DNA of 64,000 nt from a virus, in the IMG/VR virus record IMGVR_UViG_3300045988_065571; one strand, 5' to 3'. Positions 41,381-57,548 of this stretch are shown piece after piece. Position 1 is the first letter of the stretch, and the number at the start of each line of letters is the position of its first letter. The translations under genes and the position numbers were made by a program. The notes beneath the pieces were generated by a model. The model did no database searches, was not told where the DNA came from, and was given only the letters and a program-made list of their open reading frames with translations.

Positions 41381-41444
41381 CCTCAGCTAATATTAAAATA
41401 ATAAGTAGAATATTTTTATATATAATATATAAGTATTATATTTG
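41381..41444 (+). promoter_or_regulatory. early promoter cassette P41 (CCTCAGC box plus -7 TATATTTG)
   Basis: ATCCTCAGCT at 41379-41388. TATATTTGCAT with the -7 box at 41437-41444. ATG at 41484. Confidence 0.65.
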
Positions 41445-41483
41445 CATCAGAAAAGAAAATTAGACAATTTTAATATAGACAAT

Positions 41484-41762
41484 ATGAAGAATACCAACTT
41501 AGACATCCGCTTTAACAAAGCAAATAATATCATCAGCCAATTCAGTGATAGCTGGGATGATGACAAATTGATTCTATTACCTAATTTCCCAAAAATTAAG
41601 GATATGGTATCAAACCACATTACTCAAGAGAATTACTTATGGTTAATCACTTATGATTTACCTTATGATCTCTTCTACAAAATAGATAACATGGGATTAG
41701 TTCCCTATGGGCATGTAACTCATGAAGAATTAACTCAAACCTATTACAATCAAAGATTCTAA
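41484..41762 (+). CDS. hypothetical early protein
   Basis: The listed TTG start (41442) lies inside the promoter -7 box. The first ATG (MKNTNLD) is at 41484. Confidence 0.6.
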   Translation: MKNTNLDIRFNKANNIISQFSDSWDDDKLILLPNFPKIKDMVSNHITQENYLWLITYDLPYDLFYKIDNMGLVPYGHVTHEELTQTYYNQRF

Positions 41763-41766
41763 ACTT

Positions 41767-42342
41767 ATGGCAAAGAAGAAAAAAGATAAACCAGCTCCAT
41801 CAAGGGAAAAACAAAATTTCCTAGGAGCTGCCGGTAGAAACATGAAGTACAAGGATCTCAAAAGAAAGGCAGTAATCCTTGGTATGCCTTTTCCTGATGC
41901 TTGTGCTGCAGGAGTATTTGATTTAATCAAGTATATCAGTAACTCAACCAACAAACCTGATAAATCTCTAATTGACCAGTACGATGAATGGGCAGATAAA
42001 CAATTGGAAGCAATCGGTTATGATAAAACTGACCCAATCCGTAATTCAAGATTAAGATTAGGATTCTTAGGAGAAGAGGGGGAAGATGGTATTCGAAAAT
42101 TAAAAAGAGTACCAGGTATAAAGAAACCAAAAGAAAAGAAACCTCCAAGAGAAAGAGATTCTTTTAACCTTATTAAGGGTACTAAGAAATCCTACTGTTA
42201 TGAATTAACAGAAAAGGGATTTGACCAAGAGAGAGTAGTAAGGAGAATGAAAAAGAAATTCCCTGATGCTAATGAGAAATCCATTCAACTCTGGTACAGG
42301 GCTGCAAAAAGGAAATTAAATGGTAAAGCTAGCAAGGGATAA
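41767..42342 (+). CDS. lysine/arginine-rich protein
   Basis: 191 aa with basic runs MAKKKKDK and KKPKEKKPPRER. Confidence 0.6.
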   Translation: MAKKKKDKPAPSREKQNFLGAAGRNMKYKDLKRKAVILGMPFPDACAAGVFDLIKYISNSTNKPDKSLIDQYDEWADKQLEAIGYDKTDPIRNSRLRLGFLGEEGEDGIRKLKRVPGIKKPKEKKPPRERDSFNLIKGTKKSYCYELTEKGFDQERVVRRMKKKFPDANEKSIQLWYRAAKRKLNGKASKG

Positions 42343-42904
42343 TCGAAAAATATACCCAGACTTAATATATGTATGGACTTGGAGGCCTGATGAATATTGG
42401 GGATGGACCAAATACCAATATGCAACAGAAAGTAAATACCGAACTGAGAAGTTGTTATATAAAAAACATATATGTGGTTTAGGATTCTTTTCAAGATACC
42501 ATGCTAGAAGAACCATAACTCTTTTATTAGGAGTAGATGCCAATTTATATATTCATACTATCAAAGGTAAGAATCTTATAAAACAAGGCATAACTGATTT
42601 ACCTAAGAAATGTCATCAATCGATATTCTTCAAAGGTAAGCCAACTAAAATACGAAGATTTATCTTTCCTGCTGAAGCAAGAATGGATAAACATAGGAGA
42701 AGGCATTTTGTAGTAAGAATGAATAAAATTTATAAGAAACATGGAAGAAGAGCATTCAACAGGGCATACCAAATTGCATTATACGGGTATAGGGATGAAT
42801 TCTCACCTGAATATCGAAAGCAAAAGAGATTACAGGTCCATTCTGCTATCCTACAGGAGATACAACAAGCTGAGTCAAGGGGAAAAGATTCAATTCAACC
42901 TTGA
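42320..42904 (+). CDS. basic hypothetical protein
   Basis: 194-aa ORF, R/K/Y-rich. Its 3' end overlaps the next ORF by 164 nt. Confidence 0.5.
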   Translation: MVKLARDNRKIYPDLIYVWTWRPDEYWGWTKYQYATESKYRTEKLLYKKHICGLGFFSRYHARRTITLLLGVDANLYIHTIKGKNLIKQGITDLPKKCHQSIFFKGKPTKIRRFIFPAEARMDKHRRRHFVVRMNKIYKKHGRRAFNRAYQIALYGYRDEFSPEYRKQKRLQVHSAILQEIQQAESRGKDSIQP

Positions 42905-43307
42905 TTGCTTGAATCATCCTCCTAGGATTTGGCAAATAGCCCTGTTCCTTACCAAGGTATATCATATTAAGTTTAATCGTATCTTATTCAAAAAGGCCTA
43001 CGATTTCTTAGATGACTTTGGAGAAGCTTCTCTGAAATTTCAGAATCAGGTTATTATCCCAGATAAATATCTCATAAGAGAATTAAGATGGGAACTATGG
43101 AAACCTCTATCTGATTATAAAATAAGGAATAAGTATGCTTACTTCATGACCAATAGGAAACTAGATTCAGAAATTTGGGTCTACCCAATAAGATTTTCTG
43201 ATAACTATGAAACTTCGAAAAAAGGAAAATATCACTCATACACAGAAATGATGGGTAAATTGGGTTTTCCAGGTTTAACTAAAATATCATATAGCGATGA
43301 ACACTAA
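42741..43307 (+). CDS. hypothetical protein (start uncertain; +1 frame relative to upstream ORF)
   Basis: 188-aa ORF. The only in-frame ATGs (42741, 42795) lie inside the upstream ORF. Confidence 0.45.
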   Translation: MEEEHSTGHTKLHYTGIGMNSHLNIESKRDYRSILLSYRRYNKLSQGEKIQFNLDCLNHPPRIWQIALFLTKVYHIKFNRILFKKAYDFLDDFGEASLKFQNQVIIPDKYLIRELRWELWKPLSDYKIRNKYAYFMTNRKLDSEIWVYPIRFSDNYETSKKGKYHSYTEMMGKLGFPGLTKISYSDEH

Positions 43308-43521
43308 ATTAGAACAACATGGACCATATAATCCATTTGAGGGTAAATCCTTTAAGGTATTAACCTATAATCAAGTGGATCAGGTTATAAATTCTGAAGT
43401 AATTGAGATAACTTCACAAGAACAGTTCAATACCGTTCTAGAAAACATAAAACAATTTAATAATGCTCATGAATCTTTGGGACCATTCCTAAAGAAGTAT
43501 AAAAAGCTTATAACTGAGTGA
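43297..43521 (+). CDS. hypothetical protein
   Basis: 74-aa ORF overlapping the upstream stop. Confidence 0.55.
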   Translation: MNTKLEQHGPYNPFEGKSFKVLTYNQVDQVINSEVIEITSQEQFNTVLENIKQFNNAHESLGPFLKKYKKLITE

Positions 43522-43561
43522 TTAACTATATTCATTAACAAACCATTAAAATTAAACAATT

Positions 43562-44089
43562 ATGGCTAAGAAAAAAGAAACTAAGAAAGTTGAACTTAAA
43601 GAAGTATCTAGAGTAGAAATCAACGGTAACATCATCATTACTTACGAAGATGGCTCGGTAAAGATTATTCCGGCTCCCATTATGCTGACTGCTGACCAGG
43701 CATCCGAAATCTTCGGTTCAGAAGAAGATGAAGACGAAGAGGAGGAAGAATCCGATGACGATGAGGACGAAGAAGAATCGGAAGATGACGAAGATGAAGA
43801 TGATTCTGAAGAGGACGAAGAAGACGAAGAAGATGAGGACGATGATGATGATTCCGATGAAGAAGAAGATGAGGAGGAAGAAGAGGAAGAACTGACCGGT
43901 GAAGCTCTTGCCGAAATGGACTTCGAAGAATTGGAAGATGTTTGCGATGACAAAGATCTTGATACCGATCCAGATGATTTTGATGAAGAAGATATCGAAA
44001 AACTCCGTAAAGCAATTGCCAAGGAATTAGGTATCAAATTGCCCGCTAAAAAGGAAGCTAAGGGTAAAGGTAAAAAGGGTAAAAAATAA
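43562..44089 (+). CDS. hyper-acidic protein (about 60-residue D/E tract) with lysine-rich tail
   Basis: Small beta-like N-terminal domain, then SEEDEDEEEEESDDDEDEEESEDDEDEDDSEEDEEDEEDEDDDDDSDEEEDEEEEEEE, then a KKEAKGKGKKGKK end. Confidence 0.75.
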   Translation: MAKKKETKKVELKEVSRVEINGNIIITYEDGSVKIIPAPIMLTADQASEIFGSEEDEDEEEEESDDDEDEEESEDDEDEDDSEEDEEDEEDEDDDDDSDEEEDEEEEEEELTGEALAEMDFEELEDVCDDKDLDTDPDDFDEEDIEKLRKAIAKELGIKLPAKKEAKGKGKKGKK

Positions 44090-44090
44090 T

Positions 44091-44130
44091 CCCTTTACCT
44101 AGCATAAAGGGTAGGAATCATCTCCTACCC
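44091..44130 (+). terminator. two overlapping hairpins after the acidic-protein gene
   Basis: CCCTTTA/TAAAGGG (44091-44111) and GGGTAGGA/TCCTACCC (44109-44130) share GGG. No U-tract. Confidence 0.35.
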
Positions 44131-44202
44131 TAAAAATTAACTACTATTAGGTTATGTAGAAGTCACAACTTATTTATAACACATTAAAAACTTATTAAGA
44201 TT

Positions 44203-44604
44203 ATGGCAAAGAAAAAAGAAGACACCAAGAAAAAGGGTGCTAAGGAAAAAGATCCCGAAAAAGAAGCTAAACGCAAAGCTCGTATGGAAGCTATTAAAAA
44301 CCGTCCTGCAGGTCAGAGACCGAACGGTAAACAAATTGATGTTATCAAGATTTCTGATAATTCAGAAGTTCAGAACTTCGGTTATGCAATCAAAACAAAA
44401 AAAGGTGCTCAGGGAGTTTTGGTAACTTCAGTATTGGTAGTAGATGGTGCTCCAGTAAATACATCGGTTGCTTTTGTTCCCGGAGAATTGGCAATTAAGT
44501 CAAAGAAAGGACACGGTATTATCACTACTCCGAAGTCAAAGAAAGAAAAAGACACTGACGAAGAAGTAGATGAAGAAGAAACTTCTGAAGAAAACGAAGA
44601 TTAA
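44203..44604 (+). CDS. bipolar charged protein (K-rich N-terminus, acidic C-terminus)
   Basis: MAKKKEDTKKKGAKEKDPEKEAKRKAR... central beta-like core ... DTDEEVDEEETSEENED. Confidence 0.7.
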   Translation: MAKKKEDTKKKGAKEKDPEKEAKRKARMEAIKNRPAGQRPNGKQIDVIKISDNSEVQNFGYAIKTKKGAQGVLVTSVLVVDGAPVNTSVAFVPGELAIKSKKGHGIITTPKSKKEKDTDEEVDEEETSEENED

Positions 44605-44639
44605 ATTCCATAACGATTATACATTATATCAATTATCTA

Positions 44640-44673
44640 AGCCCATTGCCCACAAAGGTGATGGGCTTTTTTA
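44640..44673 (+). terminator. intrinsic terminator
   Basis: AGCCCAT/ATGGGCT stem followed by TTTTTT. Confidence 0.7.
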
Positions 44674-44685
44674 TTTTCATAACCC

Positions 44686-44892
44686 ATGACCAAAGAAGAG
44701 ATAAGAAAGAATATACAGATTATTGCACTTAATAATCTGATAGAAGATTATACTTCATATCTAGAAGTATGCAAAAATCCCCAAGAAAGGGAATTAATAG
44801 AAAACATAATATCAGAAGCTAAGGAAATGATTTTAGAATATCAATCTCAAATAAAAAGGCCCCAATGGAAAAAAGATCTTTCTCATCCTTAA
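44686..44892 (+). CDS. hypothetical protein
   Basis: 68-aa ORF after the terminator. Confidence 0.55.
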   Translation: MTKEEIRKNIQIIALNNLIEDYTSYLEVCKNPQERELIENIISEAKEMILEYQSQIKRPQWKKDLSHP

Positions 44893-45239
44893 TTTCACAG
44901 ATTGCCGAAATATACAAGGATATCAAATACTATAAATACCAAGCTCATATATCCTTGCAGCAAAATAAGATGGGTGAATATAGGAAACACCAAGCCCATA
45001 TTATGTATCAGAAAAGAAAACTTTATTCTTTATCACAAAGAGTAAAAGATATTCTTAACAACCCCGTTCTAGAAGTGAAATATATATGGGGAAATGAAAC
45101 TAAAACCAGTATTTTCTCAGGATTAACTCAAAGAGAGATATCTGATTATCTTCATACTTGTGCAATGGTAAAAGGGATTGAATTAAAAATCCTAGAAATC
45201 AAGGAAATCCATACCTTTAATTCGGATTCACTTCTATAG
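44865..45239 (+). CDS. hypothetical protein
   Basis: 124-aa ORF overlapping the upstream gene by 28 nt. Confidence 0.55.
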   Translation: MEKRSFSSLISQIAEIYKDIKYYKYQAHISLQQNKMGEYRKHQAHIMYQKRKLYSLSQRVKDILNNPVLEVKYIWGNETKTSIFSGLTQREISDYLHTCAMVKGIELKILEIKEIHTFNSDSLL

Positions 45240-45269
45240 GTAAATATAAACTCATAAATTAATAAGGAT

Positions 45270-45827
45270 ATGACAAAGAAAGTAAAACCTGCTAAAAAAG
45301 CAAAGAAACCGGCTGATAAGACTCCGGAAATCACAAAAGCTGCAAAGGCTTTGGAAAACTACCTGAAAGAAAATAACCTGGATCCTGCAAAGGATTGGTC
45401 AAAGGACAAAACTCATGGTAAGGCAGTAAAAGAACTTATGGCAAAACTTAACAAGGAAAGAGATAAAGTTGCTGCCCAATATCCTGAGAAAGACACTGCT
45501 AATCAGAAGAAGCTGGTAAAAATGAAAAAGGCTTCTGAAGATGAAAAGAAAGCTAAGAAGGAAGCTAAAGCAAAAGAGAAAAAGGAAAAAGCTAGTTCAG
45601 GTAGAACAGCAACTAAATACGATTATCCTTTGGTAGACGGAAGAGAAATGACTTCCGAAGAAAAGAAGAAATATCGTATGGCTCAGAGAAAATTGGCTGC
45701 AGGTAAAACTCCAAAAGAATCTAAGCCGAAGGAAGAACCTAAGAAGGAATCCAAAAAGGATAAGCCTTCTAAAAAAGATAAAAAGGCCAAAGATTCTAAG
45801 AAGAAAAAGGCCAAAGACGAGGATTAA
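45270..45827 (+). CDS. lysine-rich low-complexity protein
   Basis: 185 aa dominated by K/E/A (KKVKPAKKAKKPADK ... KKDKPSKKDKKAKDSKKKKAKDED). Confidence 0.7.
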   Translation: MTKKVKPAKKAKKPADKTPEITKAAKALENYLKENNLDPAKDWSKDKTHGKAVKELMAKLNKERDKVAAQYPEKDTANQKKLVKMKKASEDEKKAKKEAKAKEKKEKASSGRTATKYDYPLVDGREMTSEEKKKYRMAQRKLAAGKTPKESKPKEEPKKESKKDKPSKKDKKAKDSKKKKAKDED

Positions 45828-45867
45828 TTCCATTCTTATATTTGTTTTGTTAGTTATTAGTAGTTTT

Positions 45868-45901
45868 GGGCCTGGCAATAATCTTTGTCCAGGCCCTTTT
45901 T
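45868..45901 (+). terminator. intrinsic terminator
   Basis: 8-bp GC-rich stem GGGCCTGG/CCAGGCCC, 13-nt loop, then TTTTT. Confidence 0.75.
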
Positions 45902-45913
45902 ATCTCTAAAGTT

Positions 45914-46792
45914 ATGAAAGAAGAAAAAGAAATATTCAAACCCAAACTGCGTATCACTACACTTTCAGAAAATGGTAACCCTTTATCTGATAGATTAGTA
46001 GATGCTTGCACTGAGATGTATGCCGGTCCAAAGGTACAACATAAAGGTCCAATAAGAATAGAAGTAACCCTTGTTAATCAACAAGATATTTCTCAATTCA
46101 AAGAATACTTGGATAAATTATCTGGTAACTTACCAATCAAAGAATCTGCAGGTAGAGGAAGACCCTCTAATACTCAATCTAAAGAATTAGAATCCCCAAG
46201 AGAAGATATCCTTGCTGATGTAGAAAAGATGGTAAATGAAGGCAAAAGCCAACAAGATATTATTAAGTATCTTAGAGATCTTGGATTTGTATTCATTCTT
46301 ACAGAGGACTTTCTTTATCACTTTCCCGGATTTGAATTCGATAAGAAAGATGTTGGAGAACCTACCAACAATAAGCAATATCCCAATTCGTACTCCTGGA
46401 TGGCAAGATGTATCAAACGAGCCAAAGACCCAAAGGCCGATAAATTCGATCCGATGGTCATCTTCGGTTTTAGCATCCTTGGTGGACCATCGAAGAAAAT
46501 TGTTCCGTACCTTTATAAAGAAAGGAAGAAACCATTAAGAGCATCAGTTGGTAAATCAACCATATCCTTCTCTCAAGCAGAATTCACTAAACTACCCACA
46601 TTTATGTTGGAAGAGGAAAGGGTAAAATTCTCTACGGAACAGAGACAATTAATCCTTAATCAAGAAAAGAAGCCATCAAAATTCTTTTTGAGATGGTCTA
46701 GGGATGTATTATTGCCTAATTCAGTATATGAGAAATTGAAAGGTAGGGATGGATTAATTTTCAAGAATGACCTTATAAATGAAAAAAGATAA
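45914..46792 (+). CDS. hypothetical protein
   Basis: The listed start 45866 lies inside the terminator hairpin. ATG 45914 (MKEEKEIF) is preferred. Confidence 0.6.
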   Translation: MKEEKEIFKPKLRITTLSENGNPLSDRLVDACTEMYAGPKVQHKGPIRIEVTLVNQQDISQFKEYLDKLSGNLPIKESAGRGRPSNTQSKELESPREDILADVEKMVNEGKSQQDIIKYLRDLGFVFILTEDFLYHFPGFEFDKKDVGEPTNNKQYPNSYSWMARCIKRAKDPKADKFDPMVIFGFSILGGPSKKIVPYLYKERKKPLRASVGKSTISFSQAEFTKLPTFMLEEERVKFSTEQRQLILNQEKKPSKFFLRWSRDVLLPNSVYEKLKGRDGLIFKNDLINEKR

Positions 46793-47321
46793 TATACCAG
46801 GTTTAGAAGGTTATTATATAAGTAGATTAGGTACTTTATGGAGCAGATATCATAAATCTGGTAAATTAACTCATAGTGAATGGCATAAAGTAAAACCAAA
46901 TCATAATCAAAAAGGATATCTTTTTGTTCAGAAAAAGGGTAAATGTTGGTATTTACATAGGTTAGTAGCTTTAGCTTGGATACCTAATCCAAATAATTAT
47001 CCAATAGTATGTCATAAAGATAATGTAGTAACTCATAATTGGTATAAGAATCTTTATTGGGGAACACAGAAAGATAATATGCAACAATGTATTAGAGATG
47101 GGAGAACTCTCAAGGGAAATAAAAACCCAATGTATGGTATATCTAGGAGAGGTGCTGCTAATCCAAATGCTAAATTATCTAAAGCTCAAAGAAGAGAAAT
47201 TAGATTTAGATATGAATCTAGGGAAAAGATTTGTAGATTAGCTAACGAATTCAAGGTATCAAGATTGACCATAAGAAGGATTGTAAACCCTAGCTTAAGA
47301 TCTTTCAATAGATTAGTATAA
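46779..47321 (+). mobile_element. free-standing HNH homing endonuclease, paralog of 20566..21081
   Basis: IPGLEGYYISRLGTLWS, HKDNVVTHNWYKNLYWGTQKDNMQQ, C-terminal HTH (KVSRLTIRRIV). Same architecture as the first copy. Confidence 0.8.
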
Positions 47322-47332
47322 TCCACTACCCA

Positions 47333-47375
47333 CCTCAGCATTATTTGCATATTATATATAAAATTTATATATTTG
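47333..47375 (+). promoter_or_regulatory. early promoter cassette P47
   Basis: CCTCAGC 47333-47339, -33 TTTG 47344-47347, 20-nt spacer, -7 TATATTTG 47368-47375, ATG 47400. Confidence 0.7.
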
Positions 47376-47399
47376 TATAACGAAATAAATAATTAAAAA

Positions 47400-47762
47400 A
47401 TGGATGCAGAAACCAAGACGGTTATTAAGAACATTGCCCAAATCCAAGTTGAGGCACTAACTCATATCTCTAAAAATTTAGAGGATACAGACCATTACCT
47501 TCTTAAAAAACTTCTTCAGATTGAAGAGGGAGAAATAAGAGGAGTATTAGATAATATGATAAAACTCTATTCAGATATGATAGAATATCCTCAACTTATA
47601 AAAACTCTTACAGAGTATCAATTATACGTCTGCTCTCATATCCTATGGAAAATGGAGGAAGAATGGATAACAGATAATTCTCAAGGAGTTTTGGGAGCAT
47701 GGGCAATCATTCAAAAATATACCAACGTATTACATCCGGAGTTAACACTTTTAAAACTTTAA
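47400..47762 (+). CDS. hypothetical early protein
   Basis: 120-aa ORF 25 nt downstream of the promoter -7 box. Confidence 0.65.
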   Translation: MDAETKTVIKNIAQIQVEALTHISKNLEDTDHYLLKKLLQIEEGEIRGVLDNMIKLYSDMIEYPQLIKTLTEYQLYVCSHILWKMEEEWITDNSQGVLGAWAIIQKYTNVLHPELTLLKL

Positions 47763-47765
47763 ATT

Positions 47766-48032
47766 ATGGACAGAGAAGAATATCTTGAATCAGTTACCAT
47801 GAATACTGGTATTAAAATGAATCCAGTAGAATCTTCTAATATAGAAGGTATTGGGTATGACAACAAAAACAAACACTTATGGGTTGCTTTTAAGGGCAAC
47901 AAAGTTTACCGGTATGACTTAGTTCCCAGAAAAACTTTCGAAGAACTAATGAATGCCGAATCTAAAGGGAGATATCTTAATTCTCATATCAAGGGACAAT
48001 ATGAAGCTACAGGATATGAACTCAAAAACTAA
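47766..48032 (+). CDS. KTSC-domain protein
   Basis: VESSNIEGIGYDNKNKHLWVAFKGNKVYRYDLVPRKTFEELMNAESKGRYLNSHIKGQY matches the KTSC domain pattern. Confidence 0.75.
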   Translation: MDREEYLESVTMNTGIKMNPVESSNIEGIGYDNKNKHLWVAFKGNKVYRYDLVPRKTFEELMNAESKGRYLNSHIKGQYEATGYELKN

Positions 48033-48615: not shown

Positions 48616-48619
48616 GGAT

Positions 48620-50158: not shown

Positions 50159-50162
50159 TATA

Positions 50163-50844: not shown

Positions 50845-51721
50845 ACCTATGGGAACTACTGCAATGGCAGCAGAATACCAAAAGAGTCAGAATCTTGAAG
50901 ATTTACAAAAGGTATACAACTACATTATCAATCACTGGTTGATGGGTAATGGCATGTTATGTGGGATTATGTATGATATTAATACCTTCTCAACAAAGAC
51001 AGGTATAGATATCAATTACATACGAGTATTTATGAGAGATAGATTATTGCAATCTAAGCTTTGGGATAAAGAAAGACAGGAAGAAATGCTACAAGCTCTA
51101 TTGGGAGAACAAGTAGCATGGGCTTTAGAGGATAGAATGGAAATCTCCCATCAGGTAAATATCCTAAGAGAATCTCAGGGAGGACATTATACTCCATTCA
51201 TATCTGCTGAATTGAATAAGGCTCTTAAGATGAAACTAGATTCTTCTACTTCATTGCAATCCATCATACGTACATTTATGGGTGGAGGAACTACCAATAT
51301 CTTTAATCAATTTGGAGATACCCAGAATAATCAATTGAATCAGAACCAAGGTATATCAATAGAGGAAGCCAGAAAGATTATCCTAGAATCTCAAAAGATA
51401 ATGGACAAGCCACAGGAAGCCAAATTATTGGCAGATCACTATGATTTATCTTCTTTACCCGAGGTAGTTGCTACTAAGCAAGAAGGAATTGATACTACCA
51501 AAGAGGGCCTTACTTTGAATACTGCAGAGATGAGGCAAATTACCGATGATTACAAGGGAGCTATGGAACTCTCTTCAAGAGAACACCATGAATTAAGAAG
51601 AGAGATAGAAGCTAACATAGATCCCGAGGATCCAGACCCAGAGATAGATATGTATTTAGATGAAGAGCAATATGAAGAAAAAGAGCCTACATCAATAGCT
51701 GAACAATTCCTCAACAGGTAA
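50813..51721 (+). CDS. hypothetical protein
   Basis: 302-aa ORF with an acidic C-terminus. The alternative start is ATG 50849. Confidence 0.6.
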   Translation: MAKDNIKRFPRPMGTTAMAAEYQKSQNLEDLQKVYNYIINHWLMGNGMLCGIMYDINTFSTKTGIDINYIRVFMRDRLLQSKLWDKERQEEMLQALLGEQVAWALEDRMEISHQVNILRESQGGHYTPFISAELNKALKMKLDSSTSLQSIIRTFMGGGTTNIFNQFGDTQNNQLNQNQGISIEEARKIILESQKIMDKPQEAKLLADHYDLSSLPEVVATKQEGIDTTKEGLTLNTAEMRQITDDYKGAMELSSREHHELRREIEANIDPEDPDPEIDMYLDEEQYEEKEPTSIAEQFLNR

Positions 51722-51730
51722 TCGAGGTTT

Positions 51731-51762
51731 ATTGCATAATTAATTTATTATTCTTAAATTTG
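51731..51762 (+). promoter_or_regulatory. early promoter P51
   Basis: ATTGCAT (-33 TTG 51732-51734), 20-nt spacer, -7 TAAATTTG 51755-51762 (TTTGCAT). ATG 51788. Confidence 0.6.
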
Positions 51763-51787
51763 CATCAAATAAATAAATAATAAGATT

Positions 51788-51982
51788 ATGGATAAAACCA
51801 CATTAAAACAGCTTAAACCAGGTACACTATTCAGATTAAAAGATTCTGAATCTAGTCCAGTATGGGTAAGAGATCATTATGATAGGTCTTCTAAAACTTA
51901 TGCTTGTCATAAATACGAAGACTACAATCATGAAGCTTTCTTCAAAGGAACCAGAACAGTATTCATTAATTTTACATATTAG
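51788..51982 (+). CDS. hypothetical protein
   Basis: 64-aa ORF downstream of the promoter. Confidence 0.55.
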   Translation: MDKTTLKQLKPGTLFRLKDSESSPVWVRDHYDRSSKTYACHKYEDYNHEAFFKGTRTVFINFTY

Positions 51983-51987
51983 ACATT

Positions 51988-52665
51988 ATGAACATCAAAA
52001 ACCTATTCAACAGATTTCGTAAATCAAAGGAATCAGAGTTAAGCTATTCTCTGAATCTCATCTACCTAGAAGATACTAGGGTAGTATTTAACCAGAATAT
52101 ACAATGTGCTAAAGACCTAGAGAATTACCTATCTGCTTATATGAGACTCTTTGGTATGTATTCAGATAAACCCTATGTACTAATCTATCAGGAATACAAA
52201 AACAGATATTGGGTATATGACAAAGAACCTTACCTATTATACTATAAGGTACCACTTATAGTTAACCTCAGTAGAAAGCTATCAGGGAAATCAGACATGG
52301 TAATAACCAAAGAAAAATACCAAGCTGCTAAGGATTTAGTTCCAGCCCATGAAGTATCTGATAGATTCAAGATACCAGAATATATTACGGGAGTCTTTAC
52401 AGATATCTGGTATAAATGCCAAGGATATATGGATACGGACCATGTTGGTTTAGAGGAGATACTGGAATTGATGCAACATAATTGGTTAAAGGAATTCGAA
52501 TTATTAGTATTCAAAAGGAATTACGATACAGATATGTTATTCCTTAATCATTCTCTTACCTATATCTTGGACCAGACAGAAGAAGAGGGCCGAAGAATAT
52601 GTATTCAAAACATTATCGAACGTAACATAAATCAAGAAAATCAAGATGAAAACGAAACAATTTAA
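51988..52665 (+). CDS. hypothetical protein
   Basis: 225-aa ORF. Confidence 0.6.
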   Translation: MNIKNLFNRFRKSKESELSYSLNLIYLEDTRVVFNQNIQCAKDLENYLSAYMRLFGMYSDKPYVLIYQEYKNRYWVYDKEPYLLYYKVPLIVNLSRKLSGKSDMVITKEKYQAAKDLVPAHEVSDRFKIPEYITGVFTDIWYKCQGYMDTDHVGLEEILELMQHNWLKEFELLVFKRNYDTDMLFLNHSLTYILDQTEEEGRRICIQNIIERNINQENQDENETI

Positions 52666-52951
52666 CGTAAGCCAGTCTAGAATATATCCAGATATCAGGG
52701 ATAAATATCTGGATTATATGGGAGAACAATATAATATGTTCATTTCGGATGATACTCTAAAGAATGATCTCAGAGAAATCCTTCGAAAGGGTACTAATAA
52801 AACCATCCATTTCAATATTCTAGAAAAGAACTCAGATCTCTTGGTATTTGAAACCTCTGAATACAGTACTCTATTAGAGTTCACTAACCATTATCTCTGG
52901 ATATTCAGGCTAGTAAACGATAAATGGAATTTAATCCGATACAGAGTATAA
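52646..52951 (+). CDS. hypothetical protein
   Basis: 101-aa ORF with a 20-nt overlap on the upstream gene. Confidence 0.55.
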   Translation: MKTKQFNVSQSRIYPDIRDKYLDYMGEQYNMFISDDTLKNDLREILRKGTNKTIHFNILEKNSDLLVFETSEYSTLLEFTNHYLWIFRLVNDKWNLIRYRV

Positions 52952-52955
52952 ATTC

Positions 52956-52982
52956 GAAAGGCAGACTAACCATCTGCCTTTC
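52956..52982 (+). terminator. hairpin terminator
   Basis: 10-bp stem GAAAGGCAGA/TCTGCCTTTC, 7-nt loop, 5 nt after the stop codon. Confidence 0.5.
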
Positions 52983-52999
52983 ATAGCGTTTACACCTAT

Positions 53000-53052
53000 C
53001 CTCAGCTTAGTATTCCAGAATTTGCATATATAAAATAAAGTAGTTATATTTG
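53000..53052 (+). promoter_or_regulatory. early promoter cassette P53
   Basis: CCTCAGC 53000-53006, N14, TTTGCATAT (-33 53021-53024), 20-nt spacer, -7 TATATTTG 53045-53052. Confidence 0.75.
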
Positions 53053-53093
53053 CATAAGAAAAATAATTAATAACATTTTAAAATTTTAGACTT

Positions 53094-53453
53094 ATGAAAA
53101 ATAATGAAACCTTCCAAACCACACAACATCTAGACAAGTTAGTTACTAACCTAGGTCTTCAAATCCAAGAATTATTTTCCTTAGACTTAGAGGAAATCCT
53201 AGATTACAGCAACAATCTAATGAATCTATTAGTTAATGCTTACGTTGAAAATCAATGCTTAGCATTATCTGCAATGATATCTAAACAGGACGGATTTGCA
53301 ATATACTCTTTCTTATTTCAAACTCCTGATACTTCTAACGGTGCTGCAGATGCTCTGGTAAATTTTGCCATGAACTTTACTGATGGAGAAGCTAATATCA
53401 AATCTATCAACAGAATATCTTCAAACATAATGCAAATCACCTTTACAGTATGA
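53094..53453 (+). CDS. hypothetical early protein
   Basis: 119-aa ORF preceded by the conserved leader TTTAAAATTTTAGACTTATG. Confidence 0.65.
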   Translation: MKNNETFQTTQHLDKLVTNLGLQIQELFSLDLEEILDYSNNLMNLLVNAYVENQCLALSAMISKQDGFAIYSFLFQTPDTSNGAADALVNFAMNFTDGEANIKSINRISSNIMQITFTV

Positions 53454-53764
53454 CACCCATAAGAAGAATCTTAAACATGGTACAATTTGATCTAGCCGAG
53501 AAATTAAACTTGGCTAGATTAAGATGGTATCATTTGAATCATCAGGACCAATACCTTCAATCAGTAATCTATGGTAATCCTGATAATTGTACCTTGTTCA
53601 GACTAAGGAAAGTACTTACTAATTTGCTTAGAGCTAACTTCTTAAGTTACTACATATTAGCAGATACTCCTGAATCTCTATCTATTTCAATACAAGGTAA
53701 TGCTATCATTACATTTGTGATAACTAAAGACAATTACATAACTTTTACAATAACGAAATTATGA
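53450..53764 (+). CDS. hypothetical protein
   Basis: 104-aa ORF with an ATGA overlap. Confidence 0.6.
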   Translation: MTPIRRILNMVQFDLAEKLNLARLRWYHLNHQDQYLQSVIYGNPDNCTLFRLRKVLTNLLRANFLSYYILADTPESLSISIQGNAIITFVITKDNYITFTITKL

Positions 53765-54057
53765 GCACAACTCCATACCCAGGTCCAGATGAAGTAATTA
53801 TACCATCTCGTATATATTTCGATGAAGGTAAGAGAATAGATGTTAAAGTATGGCCTAAGACCATTCAATTAACAGGTCCCACTAAGGATTTAAACAAGGT
53901 ATTCAAAACCCTTGAAGAATATGATGATTGGTGGCATCAGTTTAAGAAAAAGAATCCAGATGCCTTCCGTAAAGATGCGAAATATGTAAAATCCATTAAT
54001 GGCCTCTTCCTTATTCAGAAAAGGCTCTATCAGATACCCAATAGAAGCCTCAGCTAA
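53761..54057 (+). CDS. hypothetical protein
   Basis: 98-aa ORF. The CCTCAGC box of the next cassette is embedded in its last codons. Confidence 0.6.
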   Translation: MSTTPYPGPDEVIIPSRIYFDEGKRIDVKVWPKTIQLTGPTKDLNKVFKTLEEYDDWWHQFKKKNPDAFRKDAKYVKSINGLFLIQKRLYQIPNRSLS

Positions 54058-54101
54058 GTAATCAGGGATATTGCATATTTAAAAATAAAGTATTATATTT
54101 G
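54048..54101 (+). promoter_or_regulatory. early promoter cassette P54
   Basis: CCTCAGC 54048-54054, N15, ATTGCATAT (TTG 54071-54073), 20-nt spacer, -7 TATATTTG 54094-54101. Confidence 0.75.
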
Positions 54102-54145
54102 CATCAGAAAAAGAAATATATTATTCATTTAAAATTTAGGCAGTC

Positions 54146-54535
54146 ATGAACTTGAACAACATTACAACAGCCCTTAAAACCGGTATCACAATTTACCAAT
54201 ACGAACAATGGCAAAATACTGGTTCAGTCAACCTAATGCAAAAGGAATCCCACATGCTTTCCAAGGTTTGGCTTAAGACAAATATCTATAACCCAGATTC
54301 TTTGGATAAACCCTTTATCCAACTCTCTGCTACTTTTACTTTAGAATTCGATATCCAAGAATATAACGAATGGCTAAATGCTAATCAGTACAAGTTATAT
54401 CCATTGCTATTGGATATTCTTAAGATATCACTAAAGGATAATTTCTACAATTACTCCAATGCTTCTAATATTCATTACGAAGGAGGGAAATTCCCAAGTA
54501 TGCTTACCATTCAATTATTTAACTTAGAATTCTAA
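54146..54535 (+). CDS. hypothetical early protein
   Basis: 129-aa ORF downstream of the promoter. Confidence 0.65.
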   Translation: MNLNNITTALKTGITIYQYEQWQNTGSVNLMQKESHMLSKVWLKTNIYNPDSLDKPFIQLSATFTLEFDIQEYNEWLNANQYKLYPLLLDILKISLKDNFYNYSNASNIHYEGGKFPSMLTIQLFNLEF

Positions 54536-54539
54536 TGTC

Positions 54540-54806
54540 ATGAAACTAACAATAACAACCCTAGTAATCATAGAAGGCCATTATATCCAAGGAATTTATC
54601 ATTCCTTGGAAGAGCATCCAGGTAAAGCTTACCAAGAACTGGTAGACCAAGTGGAAAACGAATATGGTTATGATGCCGATAAAGATCATGTACCATTACA
54701 TTTCAAAACTATCCAAGACATAGAGAATTACTTTGAACTTGTACACATAGAGACTCAAGAACTTACAGCAACCGGATTTAAAACAGCAATTTTAAAAGAA
54801 CTATAA
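54540..54806 (+). CDS. hypothetical protein
   Basis: 88-aa ORF. Confidence 0.6.
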   Translation: MKLTITTLVIIEGHYIQGIYHSLEEHPGKAYQELVDQVENEYGYDADKDHVPLHFKTIQDIENYFELVHIETQELTATGFKTAILKEL

Positions 54807-54807
54807 T

Positions 54808-55158
54808 ATGGAACCAATCATAACAATAAACGAATACCCAATCGGATGGGAATGGTTAGACAGAGTACCTTTAGAGGACTTTACCTGGCTAATCGAAATA
54901 TTTGCTACCATGACCGATGATATATGTACTTATGACTTTGCTACCTTCGATAAGGAAGCAACCGATGGAGAACCTCCCTATCCCGTAATCGAAATCAATC
55001 GAAGAGAGTTAGCCTACTTCATGTATGAGGACCAGGGATACGAATCAGGCATATCAATGTACGGTCATTATATAGCATGTAAATCCTTAGACATATTTTC
55101 AGAAGAAGAGTATATGAATCAATTAACTGACATAAAACTAATCTGTAACGAATTATGA
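54808..55158 (+). CDS. hypothetical protein
   Basis: 116-aa acidic ORF. Confidence 0.6.
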   Translation: MEPIITINEYPIGWEWLDRVPLEDFTWLIEIFATMTDDICTYDFATFDKEATDGEPPYPVIEINRRELAYFMYEDQGYESGISMYGHYIACKSLDIFSEEEYMNQLTDIKLICNEL

Positions 55159-55391
55159 GAACAGCATTATATTACATGGGACTAGGGCTTATCTTAGTCC
55201 TATTCCTTAATTCCTCTGGGCCTAACTTAGATACATTCATACCAGGCAATCCATGGGAACATTATTGCAAATATGAATTGCACAAGCATCCATTCCATAC
55301 TAATGAGAAGGAATATAACTATTTCCTTGATACTTTTACTAGCACAGATAAATATGAACAAATAATGGAGATATATGCTAACCCAAAGTAG
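55155..55391 (+). CDS. small membrane-anchored protein
   Basis: 78 aa with N-terminal TM ALYYMGLGLILVLFL. ATGA overlap. Confidence 0.55.
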   Translation: MRTALYYMGLGLILVLFLNSSGPNLDTFIPGNPWEHYCKYELHKHPFHTNEKEYNYFLDTFTSTDKYEQIMEIYANPK

Positions 55392-55659
55392 ATTTCTAAT
55401 TTCATATCAAATATTCGATAATATACAGGTAAATAATATCGGACAAACGCATGTACGTGAAATATTAAAGGATACCCAGGCCTTTACCATCAATTATCGA
55501 ACAGAACAAATAAGAGATTACCTCAGATATCCTGGAGAGGAACTGATACCAGAACATCTACATATGATTAATGCCTTGAAGGAAATCCAGAACTATTGGA
55601 ATCTTACTTCAGAAAAGGTTATCATAACAGATATTATACCTATTCCTCAGCCAGGATAA
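55375..55659 (+). CDS. hypothetical protein
   Basis: 94-aa ORF. A CCTCAGC box lies within its last codons. Confidence 0.55.
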   Translation: MLTQSRFLISYQIFDNIQVNNIGQTHVREILKDTQAFTINYRTEQIRDYLRYPGEELIPEHLHMINALKEIQNYWNLTSEKVIITDIIPIPQPG

Positions 55660-55697
55660 CCATGGTTTGCATATATAAAATAAATATATTACTTTTG
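55645..55697 (+). promoter_or_regulatory. early promoter cassette P55
   Basis: CCTCAGC 55645-55651, N14, TTTGCATAT (-33 55666-55669), 20-nt spacer, -7 TACTTTTG 55690-55697. Confidence 0.75.
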
Positions 55698-55738
55698 CAG
55701 AGTAAATTTAATTATTAACTATTTAAAATTTTAGACTT

Positions 55739-55969
55739 ATGAAAAATAATGAACTATTAAAAAAGTATGCCGGTATCTCAACCCGTATCCGCAGAATCTT
55801 TGCTTATCACTACGACCAAATCCAACGGGAAGTACAAACAGAAATTTCAACACTTACCCCAGAATTACAGGCACAATTCATGGACTTAGTCGTTGAATAC
55901 ATGGAAGAATCCATTAACTGGCCCGATCCCGATGACCAAGAAACATTCGAAAAACAATTACTCGGATAA
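55739..55969 (+). CDS. hypothetical early protein
   Basis: 76-aa ORF preceded by the leader TTTAAAATTTTAGACTTATG. Confidence 0.6.
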   Translation: MKNNELLKKYAGISTRIRRIFAYHYDQIQREVQTEISTLTPELQAQFMDLVVEYMEESINWPDPDDQETFEKQLLG

Positions 55970-55973
55970 TGCC

Positions 55974-56195
55974 ATGACAACAATTGCTTACATTATGAAT
56001 ACCTATCACATAGGTACTTATAACTTAGATATCAGGGATGTACTCAAATCCTATATTATTGCCAGATACTATGGATGGGAACCAAAAGAGGAAGACCTAG
56101 AGGAAATCATTTCCCATACAACCTATTTCGATATCAACATAGATGATGCTATCTATGAAGTCCTAACAATGCCAAGAGAAAAAATAACCCTTTAA
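55974..56195 (+). CDS. hypothetical protein
   Basis: ATG 55974 (MTTIAY) lies just after the upstream stop and is preferred over the listed 55893. Confidence 0.5.
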   Translation: MTTIAYIMNTYHIGTYNLDIRDVLKSYIIARYYGWEPKEEDLEEIISHTTYFDINIDDAIYEVLTMPREKITL

Positions 56196-56201
56196 AAAAC
56201 A

Positions 56202-56618
56202 ATGAAAAGAATGAAAACTTTATCACAAATCACAATCAGTCAGAATGATAATCAAATACTAACCTGCAAAGTATACAAAGAGCCCAACTATATATTATCT
56301 ATGTCCAATGAAGAAATATTAGAACTCATCTCTGGACTAGACTATATAGGTAACCTACCAACGGTACCAGACCTAGAGAAACCAATTGAGATCCAAATCA
56401 CAACTACAAGAGAAATACCCTTAGAACAAAACAAAGAAGTCCAAACCAAAATCAAAGAGATAATATACAATAACCTCTATGATACTCTAGTAAATGAACT
56501 AAAGAATACCATCTCTAGGTTCCAAACCGAGTATCACATCCAAGAGATAAACCCATACCTAGACGATATAATTCAGAACCCAGAAGACCTAGTACCTCAT
56601 AGAACAAAACAAAGATAA
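56202..56618 (+). CDS. hypothetical protein
   Basis: 138-aa ORF, last gene before the long non-coding region. Confidence 0.6.
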   Translation: MKRMKTLSQITISQNDNQILTCKVYKEPNYILSMSNEEILELISGLDYIGNLPTVPDLEKPIEIQITTTREIPLEQNKEVQTKIKEIIYNNLYDTLVNELKNTISRFQTEYHIQEINPYLDDIIQNPEDLVPHRTKQR

Positions 56619-56627
56619 ATAAAAAGA

Positions 56628-56660
56628 ATACCTAGAGCCAAGAACACTCTAGGTATTTCT
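56628..56660 (+). terminator. hairpin terminator closing the early array
   Basis: 10-bp stem ATACCTAGAG/CTCTAGGTAT, 9-nt loop, then TTCT. Confidence 0.55.
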
Positions 56661-56860
56661 GTGTACACAAACCAAGTATATAAATCCTAACCCACCTCCC
56701 AAAACAAAAACAAATATAAATAAACCTAATACTAAGGTATACAATTAACCTCATATACACAATCTGAATATACAGATATCACTAACTAAGATACATACAC
56801 ATTACCTAATCACAATCAATATATAATAATACATATAACTAATACTAATTTACTTTTCTT
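56661..56860 (+). other. G-depleted A/C/T tract (non-coding)
   Basis: By my count only about 6 G in about 190 nt (56671-56860) on the + strand. No ORF of 60 aa or more on either strand. Confidence 0.6.
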
Positions 56861-56989
56861 AGGTTCTTGGTTTATTCCTTTTCTGTGTACCGACGGGGGT
56901 TTTTCGAAAATGTCGGGAACATACCCATTTGGCTTCTCTCACTATATCAAACACTATAGCTCTCAAAATTTAAAGTACTAAATCCTTGA

Positions 56990-57420
56990 GGCCCCAAAGG
57001 CCATTTTAGGCAATAAAATCACCAATCCTGGCCCCTAAATCACAGAAAAGCAAAAAGTACACTCTGGCAATAGTTTTTGAGATACGTATATGAGCCTTTT
57101 TGACACGTAGCTATTTTAGTAACGCCTATATATAATATACTAATATGGGTGGGATTTAGATACGTATGTATTTTAGCTTCACACGTGTAATTGAAAAGTG
57201 TTCTGTTTGGCTAGTTTGTGTAATCTAGGATTTAGGTTGTGATTTTGTGTACCTAGACTCGGATTTTAATTGCCAAGAGGCTAGGATTTATATTAAAATT
57301 GTGTACCTAGAGGGGCCATTTTAGGCTCGGATTTAATAAAACTGGGTACACAATTTATGCCATAAATGGCCTCGGATTTAATAAATTTCTAGGCAATCAA
57401 GGAGCCAATTTTAATTGCCA
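56990..57420. repeat. cluster of short dispersed direct and inverted repeats in ORF-free DNA
   Basis: GGCCATTTTAGGC x2 (56999, 57314). GGCCCC(T)AAA x2 (56990, 57030). TTGTGTACCTAGA x2 (57245, 57299). CTCGGATTTAATAAA x2 (57326, 57371). ATTTTAATTGCCA x2 (57263, 57408). 12-bp inverted repeat AAATTGTGTACC at 57296-57307 / 57345-57356. Confidence 0.8.
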
Positions 57421-57516
57421 TCCTAGTAATATTGTTGTTAATTGCATAAGTATTTATATTATGGTTATTTTAGATAATTCTAGGACATTAGGGGCCTTCG
57501 AAAGGCAAACTGGGAT

Positions 57517-57548
57517 ATTGCATAATTAAAATATTGTTCTTATATTTG
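57517..57548 (+). promoter_or_regulatory. early promoter P57
   Basis: ATTGCAT (57517-57523), 20-nt spacer, -7 TATATTTG 57541-57548. The 26-nt block is identical to P48. Confidence 0.7.

What the first reader, a model, noticed from the sequence alone, without database searches (positions are those of the whole stretch)
41381..57548. Repeated early-gene promoter cassette: ATCCTCAGCT box, TTTGCATAT, 20-nt spacer, TAnnTTTGCAT
At least eight + strand units and one minus-strand unit (17653-17717) carry the Bacteroidota sigma-A type -7 box TAnnTTTG. Most also have a -33 (T)TTG exactly 20 nt upstream. Both boxes are extended to TTGCAT. The + strand units are at 41437, 47368, 48675, 51755, 53045, 54094, 55690 and 57541.

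Seven of the units also have CCTCAGC, usually as ATCCTCAGCT, 29-51 nt upstream of the -7 box. These lie at 41381, 47333, 48620, 53000, 54048, 55645 and, on the minus strand, 17711-17717. Three of them sit at an identical N14-15 distance from the -33 element. The box often overlaps the stop codon or last codons of the preceding gene.

From base composition I expect a GC-rich 7-mer like this only about twice in the window. I saw no copies away from promoters on a visual pass. That is the behaviour of a regulator or activator binding site, or of a recombination boundary for swapping early gene modules. Some cassettes are near-identical in pairs: 26 nt at 48660-48685 matches 57526-57551, and 24 nt at 41431-41454 matches 54088-54111.
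Basis: partly seen in the sequence, partly recalled or inferred. Interest (0 to 1): 0.62.

Follow-up and report, generated by a model that had tools for sequence, protein, structure and literature searches.

The report
Phase-locked CCTCAG box upstream of phage promoters
A very common human-gut Bacteroides phage places the short word CCTCAG exactly 35, 45 or 55-57 bases upstream of most of its host-type promoters, always in the same orientation; this marks it as a conserved docking site for a still unknown transcription regulator.

Summary
All seven CCTCAGC copies in the window lie upstream of Bacteroidota-type promoters (-7 box TAnnTTTG).

I compared 12 related genomes of about 85 kb, which fall into three clades. 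The box is:
- the most enriched word upstream of promoters (33-37 fold);
- always in one orientation (63 forward, 0 reverse);
- found only 35, 45-46 or 55-57 nt upstream of the -7 box, that is, in steps of one helical turn.

Orthologous promoters have jumped between these classes through 10- and 21-nt indels. Between clades 1 and 3 the box is 95% conserved, while its flanks are 34-48% identical. Clade 2 shows decay of the box. A more distant relative and five candidate host genomes show no such arrangement.

The best reading is a phase-dependent binding site for a lineage-specific regulator acting on RNA polymerase. That regulator was not identified. The sigma-region-4-like protein at 40408-41379 is a candidate, but it does not co-vary with the box. 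The recombination-boundary idea is at most secondary.

Earlier notes in this scan describe other promoter-linked boxes in other phages, but not this one.

The parts
41381..41387 (+). CCTCAGC box, 56 nt before the -7 box at 41437. It starts 1 nt after the TGA stop of gene 40408-41379.
47333..47339 (+). CCTCAGC box, 35 nt before the -7 box at 47368 and 5 nt before the -33 element TTTGCATAT (47344-47352). It lies 12 nt after the stop of an inserted HNH endonuclease gene.
48620..48626 (+). CCTCAGC box, 55 nt before the -7 box at 48675. This promoter has an A/T-rich UP-like stretch and no -33 TTG.
53000..53006 (+). CCTCAGC box, 45 nt before the -7 box at 53045. It lies downstream of a terminator-like hairpin (GGCAGA...TCTGCC) and marks the first base of a 110-nt repeated cassette.
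54048..54054 (+). CCTCAGC box, 46 nt before the -7 box at 54094. It overlaps the last codons and the TAA stop of gene 53761-54057.
55645..55651 (+). CCTCAGC box, 45 nt before the -7 box at 55690. It lies inside the last codons of gene 55375-55659.
17711..17717 (-). CCTCAGC box, 57 nt before the -7 box at 17660(-). This is the promoter of the 219-aa gene 16970-17629(-).
61487..61493 (-). CCTCAGA box, 56 nt before the -7 box at 61437(-).
51709..51715 (+). Degenerate box CCTCAAC at the in-phase distance of 46 nt before the -7 box at 51755.
57495..57501 (+). Degenerate box CCTTCGA at the in-phase distance of 46 nt before the -7 box at 57541. It is part of a small hairpin.
41437..57551 (+). Eight + strand core promoters with -7 boxes TAnnTTTG(CAT) at 41437, 47368, 48675, 51755, 53045, 54094, 55690 and 57541. 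Six of them have a -33 (T/A)TTGCATA(T/A) element at 47344, 51731, 53021, 54070, 55666 and 57517, each followed by a 20-nt spacer.
58888..58997 (+). Two sigma-A-type promoters without a box (-7 boxes at 58888 and 58987), in an ORF-poor region.
40408..41379 (+). 323-aa protein whose first ~60 residues fold like sigma-factor region 4, the -35-binding helix-turn-helix. It is a candidate box reader but is not supported by co-variation.
16970..17629 (-). 219-aa all-helical protein of unknown fold. Its own promoter carries the box.
46779..47321 (+). I-HmuI-like HNH homing endonuclease gene. It is an insertion that is absent from the 95%-identical record G001.

Best explanation
CCTCAG followed by C, T or A is a cis-acting upstream element of the host-sigma-A-type promoters in this lineage of ~85 kb gut Bacteroidales phages. 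The lineage fits the description of 'Flandersviridae'. These promoters head the small genes of the ~20 kb locus of unknown function and are probably early.

The box lies on the non-template strand, in one orientation only. If the TA of TAnnTTTG is taken as -12, the box is centred near -44.5, -54.5 or -65. All copies are therefore on the same face of the helix as the -33 element.

The most likely mechanism is this. A sequence-specific protein binds the asymmetric 6-7 bp site as a monomer and touches RNA polymerase at the promoter. It either boosts the promoters or shuts them off on schedule, as class I activators and phage early-gene repressors do. I favour a phage-encoded protein over a host one.

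Shown here: enrichment, orientation, quantised spacing, purifying selection, and restriction to this lineage. Inferred: protein binding, contact with polymerase, the sign of regulation, early timing, and the position of the transcription start.
For: **Position in the window.** All 7 CCTCAGC copies lie 35-57 nt upstream of a co-oriented -7 box. By my arithmetic, about 12 promoters times 23 offsets out of 128,000 stranded positions gives about 0.002 per copy.

**Unbiased word search.** CCTCA and CTCAG are the most enriched 5-mers upstream of promoters in clades 1 and 3, at 33-37 fold.

**Spacing.** Among 59 non-redundant promoters from 12 genomes, exact boxes occur only at 35 (6), 45 (7), 46 (1), 55 (12), 56 (5) and 57 (2) nt. 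None occurs elsewhere within 100 nt. The Rayleigh resultant is 0.95 at a period of 10.25 nt.

**Orientation.** 63 forward, 0 reverse.

**Independent spacing changes in orthologous promoters**:
- 35 nt in clade 1 against 45 nt in clade 3, in front of the 119-123 aa gene;
- 46 against 35 nt, in front of the 121-141 aa gene;
- 55/56 against 35 nt, through a 21-nt duplication.

**No fixed relation to the upstream gene.** The stop codon of the upstream gene ends anywhere from 61 nt before the box start to 26 nt after it. Where terminator hairpins exist, they lie upstream of the box.

**Footprint.** In 7 orthologous clade 1 / clade 3 pairs the box is 95% identical, the upstream flank 34% and the downstream flank 48%.

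**Lineage restriction.**
- Clade 2, which is sister to clade 3 by identity, shows 1-2 mismatches at the same places.
- MT121964 has the same core promoters but no box.
- Five Bacteroides, Phocaeicola and Segatella genomes show no excess over the control and no quantised spacing.
Against: - There are no transcript data.
- No binder was identified. The only protein with a recognisable DNA-reading fold, 40408-41379, has an invariant helix-turn-helix in the clade that lost the box.
- A search for genes present in clades 1 and 3 but absent in clade 2 gave only small unannotated ORFs.
- Many box-bearing promoters are paralogous cassettes of 100-110 nt at 62-78% identity. Part of the spacing regularity is therefore inherited rather than independently selected.
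- Clade 2 promoters work, presumably, without the box and mostly without a -33 TTG, so the box is dispensable for basal promoter function.
- A 6-bp asymmetric GC-rich site is unusual for classical dimeric activators.
Confidence: 0.55

Rival explanations
1. The box is contacted directly by host RNA polymerase, through the alpha C-terminal domain or another surface, as an unusual UP-like element. No separate factor is involved.
For: The positions, near -44.5, -54.5 and -65, are spaced like UP subsites and lie on the polymerase face. In the 55-type promoters the box directly abuts an A/T-rich UP-like stretch.
Against: The box is GC-rich, unlike UP elements. It shows no excess and no phasing upstream of TAnnTTTG in five candidate host genomes. 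It is decayed in clade 2 and absent in MT121964, although the core promoters there are the same.
Confidence: 0.12
2. The box ends the upstream transcription unit. It would act as a factor-dependent terminator, roadblock or RNA-processing site that insulates each small operon.
For: The box always lies between the end of one gene and the next promoter, and often within a few nt of the stop codon. In one clade 2 promoter the corresponding word, CCTCGG, is the 3' half of a hairpin-plus-T-run terminator.
Against: The distance to the upstream stop varies from -61 to +26 nt, while the distance to the downstream -7 box is quantised. Where hairpin terminators exist, they precede the box. No complementary CTGAGG lies nearby. 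The unit at 17711-17717 sits in a divergent intergenic region with no upstream co-oriented gene.
Confidence: 0.1
3. The box is a recombination or homing landmark. It would mark the boundary of mobile promoter-gene cassettes, or form part of a homing-endonuclease target.
For: A 110-nt repeated cassette starts exactly at the box. Sequence directly upstream of the box is hypervariable between genomes. HNH endonuclease genes are inserted 12 nt upstream of the same box in members of all three clades. Downstream genes have been replaced behind a conserved promoter, at window position 57592 compared with G001.
Against: Six bp is too short for homologous exchange, and no site-specific recombinase was found next to the cassettes. 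Most endonuclease copies in these genomes are not near boxes. A boundary role does not predict a fixed orientation or 10-nt phasing to the -7 box. The observations fit equally well with the box simply being the outermost constrained element of the promoter.
Confidence: 0.08
4. The box is a functionless relic carried along when one ancestral promoter cassette was duplicated.
For: The promoters are recognisably paralogous. Clade 2 lets the box decay without losing the promoters.
Against: The box is 95% conserved while its flanks are 34-48% identical between clades 1 and 3. It has survived 10- and 21-nt indels that kept it in phase. It is kept even where it overlaps coding sequence.
Confidence: 0.05

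Closest known systems
Class I activator-dependent promoters (E. coli CRP sites at -61.5, -71.5, -82.5 and -92.5; phage phi29 p4 at the A3 and A2c promoters)
   Same: The site lies upstream of the -35 equivalent. It works from several positions that differ by whole helical turns, which implies contact with polymerase on one face of the DNA. This comparison rests on established knowledge plus the spacing data.
   Different: The box is a 6-7 bp asymmetric GC-rich word, not a dyad. Its positions are closer to the promoter (about -45, -55 and -65). The host is a Bacteroidota organism whose sigma-A uses -33/-7 elements. No activator is known.
Phage T4 middle promoters (MotA box plus host -10 element; sigma appropriation by MotA and AsiA)
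   Same: A short asymmetric phage-specific box is added to a host-type core element and read by a monomeric phage factor. The box is found only in the phage.
   Different: The MotA box replaces the -35 element at -30. Here the box lies 10-30 bp further upstream, and most promoters keep their -33 element.
Bacteroidota primary-sigma promoters (-33 TTTG, -7 TAnnTTTG)
   Same: The core of every unit matches this layout, with a 20-nt spacer.
   Different: No upstream GC-rich element is part of the described consensus. I found none in five host genomes.
Promoter-early stem-loop (PeSL) cassettes of T4-like phages
   Same: Repeated early-promoter units flank small variable genes and coincide with sites of gene replacement and homing-endonuclease insertion.
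   Different: PeSLs are defined by a promoter plus a stem-loop that serves as a recombination substrate. Here hairpins are present only at some junctions, and the conserved word is phase-locked to the promoter.
Other promoter-linked boxes noted in this scan (e1-2903620, e1-3510224, e1-3423672)
   Same: These are phage-specific words at a fixed distance from a host TAnnTTTG box.
   Different: Those boxes sit at or next to the -33 position at a single distance. None is CCTCAG, and none shows several helical-turn positions.

Membership tests
Bacteroidota sigma-A promoter | -7 element TAnnTTTG | tested here: met
   All units carry it. The extended form TAnnTTTGCAT occurs 7 times against 1.4 expected.
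Bacteroidota sigma-A promoter | -33 TTTG element about 19-21 nt upstream of the -7 element | tested here: met
   Six of the ten box-associated units in the window have TTG followed by a 20-nt spacer. Three units of the 55-57 nt class lack it.
Bacteroidota sigma-A promoter | Transcription starts a few nt downstream of the -7 element | not testable with these tools
Class I activator site | Functional positions spaced by integral helical turns upstream of the core promoter | tested here: met
   Boxes occur only at 35, 45-46 and 55-57 nt. The Rayleigh resultant is 0.95 at a period of 10.25 nt.
Class I activator site | A known sequence-specific activator that binds the site and contacts polymerase | tested here: inconclusive
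   A protein with a sigma-region-4-like fold is encoded next to the first cassette, but it does not co-vary with the box. The phylogenetic profile was uninformative.
Class I activator site | Dyad-symmetric site for a dimer | tested here: not met
   The box is asymmetric, its flanks carry no information, and its orientation is 63:0.
UP element | A/T-rich sequence between -40 and -60 | tested here: not met
   The box is 4/6 G+C. A separate A/T-rich stretch follows it in the 55-type promoters.
T4 MotA-box middle promoter | Box centred at -30 that replaces the -35 element | tested here: not met
   The box lies 35-57 nt upstream of the -7 element, and the -33 element is retained in 20 of 32 box-bearing promoters.
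PeSL-type recombination cassette | Repeated promoter units that bound variable genes and coincide with exchange breakpoints | tested here: inconclusive
   Repeats and some breakpoints fit. No systematic breakpoint map was made, and hairpins are not general.
'Flandersviridae' / Gubaphage | Genome of about 85 kb, ordered as contractile-tail structural block, then DnaB/DnaG/PolA module, then a ~20 kb locus of unknown ORFs; gut Bacteroides or Parabacteroides hosts | tested here: inconclusive
   Genome size (83.9-84.9 kb closed contigs), DnaB, PolA, RecA, SbcC and the locus of unknown ORFs match the description in PMC8008677. No reference genome of that family was compared directly.

The most novel reading that the evidence does not exclude
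The box is the operator of a phage-encoded monomeric factor, possibly the sigma-region-4-like protein 40408-41379. The factor would bridge to Bacteroides RNA polymerase from any of three helical-turn positions. If so, this would be the first upstream activator or shut-off system defined for Bacteroidota sigma-A promoters. It would have been gained in one 'Flandersviridae' lineage and lost again in clade 2.
Probability: 0.3. Interest if true: 0.65.

Novelty: new member of a known kind. Interest (0 to 1): 0.5.

Why it matters
These phages are among the most frequently assembled viruses of the human gut. Nothing is known about how they time their genes, and the ~20 kb locus these promoters control is entirely unannotated.

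A 6-bp word with a strict helical-phase rule gives three things. It is a concrete, testable handle on that regulation. It provides a way to delimit about a dozen transcription units by sequence alone. It is a possible compact regulatory part for Bacteroides genetic engineering.

The natural loss of the box in clade 2 offers a built-in comparison for finding the factor that reads it.

Tried and rejected
- **Near and distant DNA search of the phage collection.** There was no near match, and one query was too long.
- **PHROGs and Pfam on 30 proteins of the region.** Nothing useful came back for the small genes.
- **219-aa protein as a sigma factor.** It had no Pfam or PDB sequence match, and the AlphaFold model had pLDDT 44, which is unusable.
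Pfam and PDB sequence searches do not support it, and I did not fold it.
- **Co-variation of the sigma-4-like helix-turn-helix with the box.** There is none.
- **Genes shared by clades 1 and 3 but missing in clade 2.** Only weak, unannotated small ORFs appeared. One of them is absent from the window itself.
- **Box as the -35 element of a second, overlapping promoter.** No conserved element lies at a fixed distance downstream of the box.
- **Box as half of a terminator stem.** No complementary word lies upstream.
- **Box compensating for a missing -33 element.** Not supported.
- **Host-wide element.** Not supported in five genomes. Repeated host promoters that contain CCTCAGC at 51 or 58 nt are out of phase, and they are not rRNA or tRNA promoters.
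- **Literature search.** No description of this motif or of promoters in these phages was found.
- **'Direct terminal repeats' of G002 and G004.** These are 96- and 35-nt assembly overlaps, so they give no information on genome ends.


Full report
**1. The observation**

Chance expectation is 2.9 +/- 1.6, and 3 of 100 shuffles reach 7.

Each copy lies upstream of a TAnnTTTG box and in the same orientation as the gene that follows. Start-to-start distances are:
- 57 nt (17717, minus strand);
- 56 nt (41381);
- 35 nt (47333);
- 55 nt (48620);
- 45 nt (53000);
- 46 nt (54048);
- 45 nt (55645).

The extended -7 box TAnnTTTGCAT occurs 7 times against 1.4 expected. Six units have a -33 (T/A)TTGCAT element followed by a spacer of exactly 20 nt.

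The count alone is only mildly unusual. The hexamer CCTCAG is not enriched overall: 26 copies against 21.5 expected, 17 of them inside genes. The signal lies in where the copies sit.

**2. The genome and its relatives**

The window's own assembly is not held. The nearest record, G001 (170 kb), turned out to be two different ~85 kb genomes laid head to tail. One is 95% identical to the window and the other about 72%.

A pattern scan of viral contigs brought in more relatives. I fetched ten of them whole. They form three clades:
- clade 1: the window, G001A and G005;
- clade 2: G001B, G003, G004 and G007;
- clade 3: G002, G006, G008, G009 and G010.

Identity between clades is 72-76%. Clades 2 and 3 are slightly closer to each other than either is to clade 1. 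Closed assemblies are 83.9-84.9 kb.

Several features match the published description of 'Flandersviridae' (PMC8008677): the genome size, the DnaB, PolA, RecA and SbcC genes, the closest records being from human faeces, and a ~20 kb block of unannotated small ORFs after the replication module. That paper gives a median genome size of 85.2 kb and names Bacteroides and Parabacteroides as hosts from CRISPR spacers. I did not compare the window with a reference genome of that family, so membership is an inference.

The finding lies in that ~20 kb locus of unknown function.

**3. What the box is**

I collected sigma-A-type promoters in all 12 genomes. The criteria were a TAnnTTTG outside any long same-strand ORF, an A/T-rich upstream stretch, and an ORF downstream.

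In clade 3 nearly every such promoter carries CCTCAG followed by C, T or A. The conserved core is therefore the hexamer plus a loosely constrained seventh base, and the flanks carry no information.

With this definition the window gains three things:
- an eighth unit, CCTCAGA at 61487-61493 (minus strand), 56 nt before the -7 box at 61437;
- a one-mismatch remnant at an in-phase place, CCTCAAC at 51709, 46 nt out;
- a two-mismatch remnant at an in-phase place, CCTTCGA at 57495, 46 nt out.

Only the twin promoters at 58888 and 58987 have nothing.

An unbiased 5-mer count shows CCTCA and CTCAG as the most enriched words 34-62 nt upstream of promoters in clades 1 and 3, at 33-37 fold. Orientation is 63 forward to 0 reverse.

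**4. Spacing**

Among 59 non-redundant promoters, exact boxes occur at 35 (6), 45 (7), 46 (1), 55 (12), 56 (5) and 57 (2) nt before the TA of the -7 box. None occurs anywhere else within 100 nt. A Rayleigh test peaks at a period of 10-10.5 nt with a resultant of 0.95.

Because the promoters are paralogous cassettes of 62-78% identity over 65-110 nt, these counts are not all independent. Orthologous promoters have nevertheless moved between classes at least three times:
- 35 nt in clade 1 against 45 nt in clade 3 and 44 nt in clade 2, in front of the 119-123 aa gene;
- 46 against 35 nt, in front of the 121-141 aa gene;
- 55/56 against 35 nt, through a 21-nt duplication.

All of these indels are multiples of one helical turn.

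The distance from the end of the upstream gene's stop codon to the box start, by contrast, ranges from -61 to +26 nt. Where terminator hairpins exist, they lie upstream of the box. The box is therefore tied to the promoter downstream, not to the gene end upstream.

If the TA is taken as about -12 (my inference from the published layout, not measured), the box is centred near -44.5, -54.5 and -65. That is the same DNA face as the -33 element.

**5. Selection and distribution**

I anchored seven orthologous clade 1 / clade 3 promoter pairs on the box. The box is 95% identical (40 of 42 positions). The 24 nt upstream are 34% identical and the 24 nt downstream 48%. The box is a conserved island in otherwise randomised DNA. 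It is kept even where it overlaps the last codons of the preceding gene.

In clade 2 the same places hold CCTCGG, CCTCCG, CCTAAG, CCTGGG (or CCCGAG), CCTATG and CCTACG. Only one promoter keeps the exact word. This is what neutral decay of an ancestral CCTCAG would look like.

Since clade 2 groups with clade 3, the simplest history is presence in the common ancestor and loss of constraint in clade 2.

A more distant relative, MT121964 (PolA 63% identical), has the same TTTGCAT -33 and -7 elements but no box.

In four Bacteroides or Phocaeicola genomes and one Segatella genome, CCTCAG-N24-54-TAnnTTTG shows no consistent excess over the reversed-pattern control: the four Bacteroides/Phocaeicola genomes have fewer matches than the control, and the Segatella surplus is largely one repeated sequence. 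Only 14 of 61 matches fall at the six phage distances, against about 19% expected.

The element is thus specific to a phage lineage and is not a general feature of host promoters.

**6. Mechanism**

Four properties need explaining: a short asymmetric word, a fixed orientation, action from three positions one helical turn apart, and purifying selection.

These are best explained by a sequence-specific protein that binds the box and acts on RNA polymerase at the adjacent promoter. Established examples of phase-dependent action from several upstream positions are CRP class I sites and phi29 p4 (from my own knowledge).

I cannot tell whether the effect is activation or timed repression.

'Early' is an inference. 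These are the only host-type promoters in the genome. The replication and structural modules have none.

**7. Who reads the box**

*Protein 40408-41379.* The AlphaFold model is confident (pLDDT 83). Its first ~60 residues superpose on sigma-factor region 4, the domain that reads -35 elements as a monomer. The rmsd is 1-2 Å and target-normalised TM-scores are 0.7-0.8. Foldseek E-values are weak because the domain is small.

This makes the protein a natural candidate, and its gene ends 1 nt before the first box. However, its helix-turn-helix is identical in all three clades, including clade 2. There is therefore no co-variation to tie it to the box.

*Protein 16970-17629.* This 219-aa protein could not be classified.

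*Genes shared by clades 1 and 3 but absent from clade 2.* These are a handful of small unannotated ORFs, and none is convincing.

A host factor present in the hosts of clades 1 and 3 but not in the hosts of clade 2 remains possible.

**8. Rivals**

- *Direct recognition by polymerase.* This is disfavoured by the GC-rich composition, the host genome test, and the loss of the box in relatives that have the same core promoters.
- *A terminator or insulator role.* This does not explain the phase lock or the unit in a divergent intergenic region.
- *The recombination-boundary idea.* It has some circumstantial support. A 110-nt repeat starts exactly at the box. DNA just upstream of the box is hypervariable. 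I-HmuI-like HNH endonuclease genes sit 12 nt upstream of the same box in one member of each clade. Genes have been replaced behind a conserved promoter. All of this is also expected if the box is simply the outermost constrained base of the promoter. Six bp cannot drive homologous exchange.
- *A functionless relic.* The footprint contradicts this.

**9. Verdict**

The regulator-site reading is the best supported, but it rests on comparative sequence evidence alone.

This is a new motif of a familiar kind, a promoter-upstream regulator site, in a very common and uncharacterised gut phage family. Earlier notes of this scan describe other boxes locked to TAnnTTTG in other phages, but none with this word or with several helical-turn positions.

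Noticed in passing
window 46779-47321 (+); also 20566-21081 (+): These are I-HmuI-like HNH homing endonuclease genes (PDB 1u3e, E 6e-8). The copy at 46779 is an insertion absent from the 95%-identical G001. Related copies (69% and 51% identical) occupy the same intergenic site in one clade 2 genome (G004) and one clade 3 genome (G006). Each genome holds 1-5 paralogues.
   Followed up: partly
G001 (IMG/VR record, 170137 bp); also ~170 kb contigs behind L031, L034 and L356: G001 is two different ~85 kb genomes (clade 1 plus clade 2, 72% identical) joined head to tail at homologous positions, yet it is rated 100% complete. Several other contigs of about 170 kb exist. This looks like a recurrent co-assembly chimera, or possibly mixed concatemers.
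   Followed up: partly
window 5' leaders, e.g. 41469-41480, 53080-53091, 55725-55736, 17633-17645(-): A second conserved word, (C)ATTTTAA(A/T)ATAGAC, lies 2-7 nt before the ATG in 16 of 54 non-redundant promoters. ATAGAC is 60-fold enriched, in all three clades including clade 2. It could be a translational operator, or a start-associated sequence like those of Cluster K mycobacteriophages.
   Followed up: partly
window 40408-41379: The 323-aa protein has an N-terminal sigma-region-4 fold. The remaining ~260 residues have no structural match. One full-length homologue in the viral structure library is labelled 'Ackermannviridae sp.'.
   Followed up: yes
window 58847-58997: Two strong box-less sigma-A-type promoters lie 99 nt apart in an ORF-poor, repeat-rich region. 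No tRNA or Rfam family lies downstream. They may drive small RNAs.
   Followed up: partly
window 43562-44089: The ORF contains a long run of GAA/GAT/GAC repeats (43720-43891), which would give an extremely acidic Glu/Asp tract. It may be a DNA-mimic type early protein.
   Followed up: no
L305-L309 (Bacteroides stercorirosoris) and L310-L313 (Segatella copri): Host genomes hold multi-copy promoter repeats that begin with CCTCAGC or CCTCAGT, 51 or 58 nt before TAnnTTTG. There are 6-7 copies each. They are not rRNA or tRNA promoters. One lies beside a FopS sRNA gene. They are out of phase with the phage classes.
   Followed up: partly
window 1-16800 and 17806-41379: No sigma-A-type promoter is evident in the structural and replication modules. 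A conserved GGATTTCCTATTATAATATATA lies upstream of 21286 and its orthologues, and may be a phage-specific middle or late promoter.
   Followed up: no
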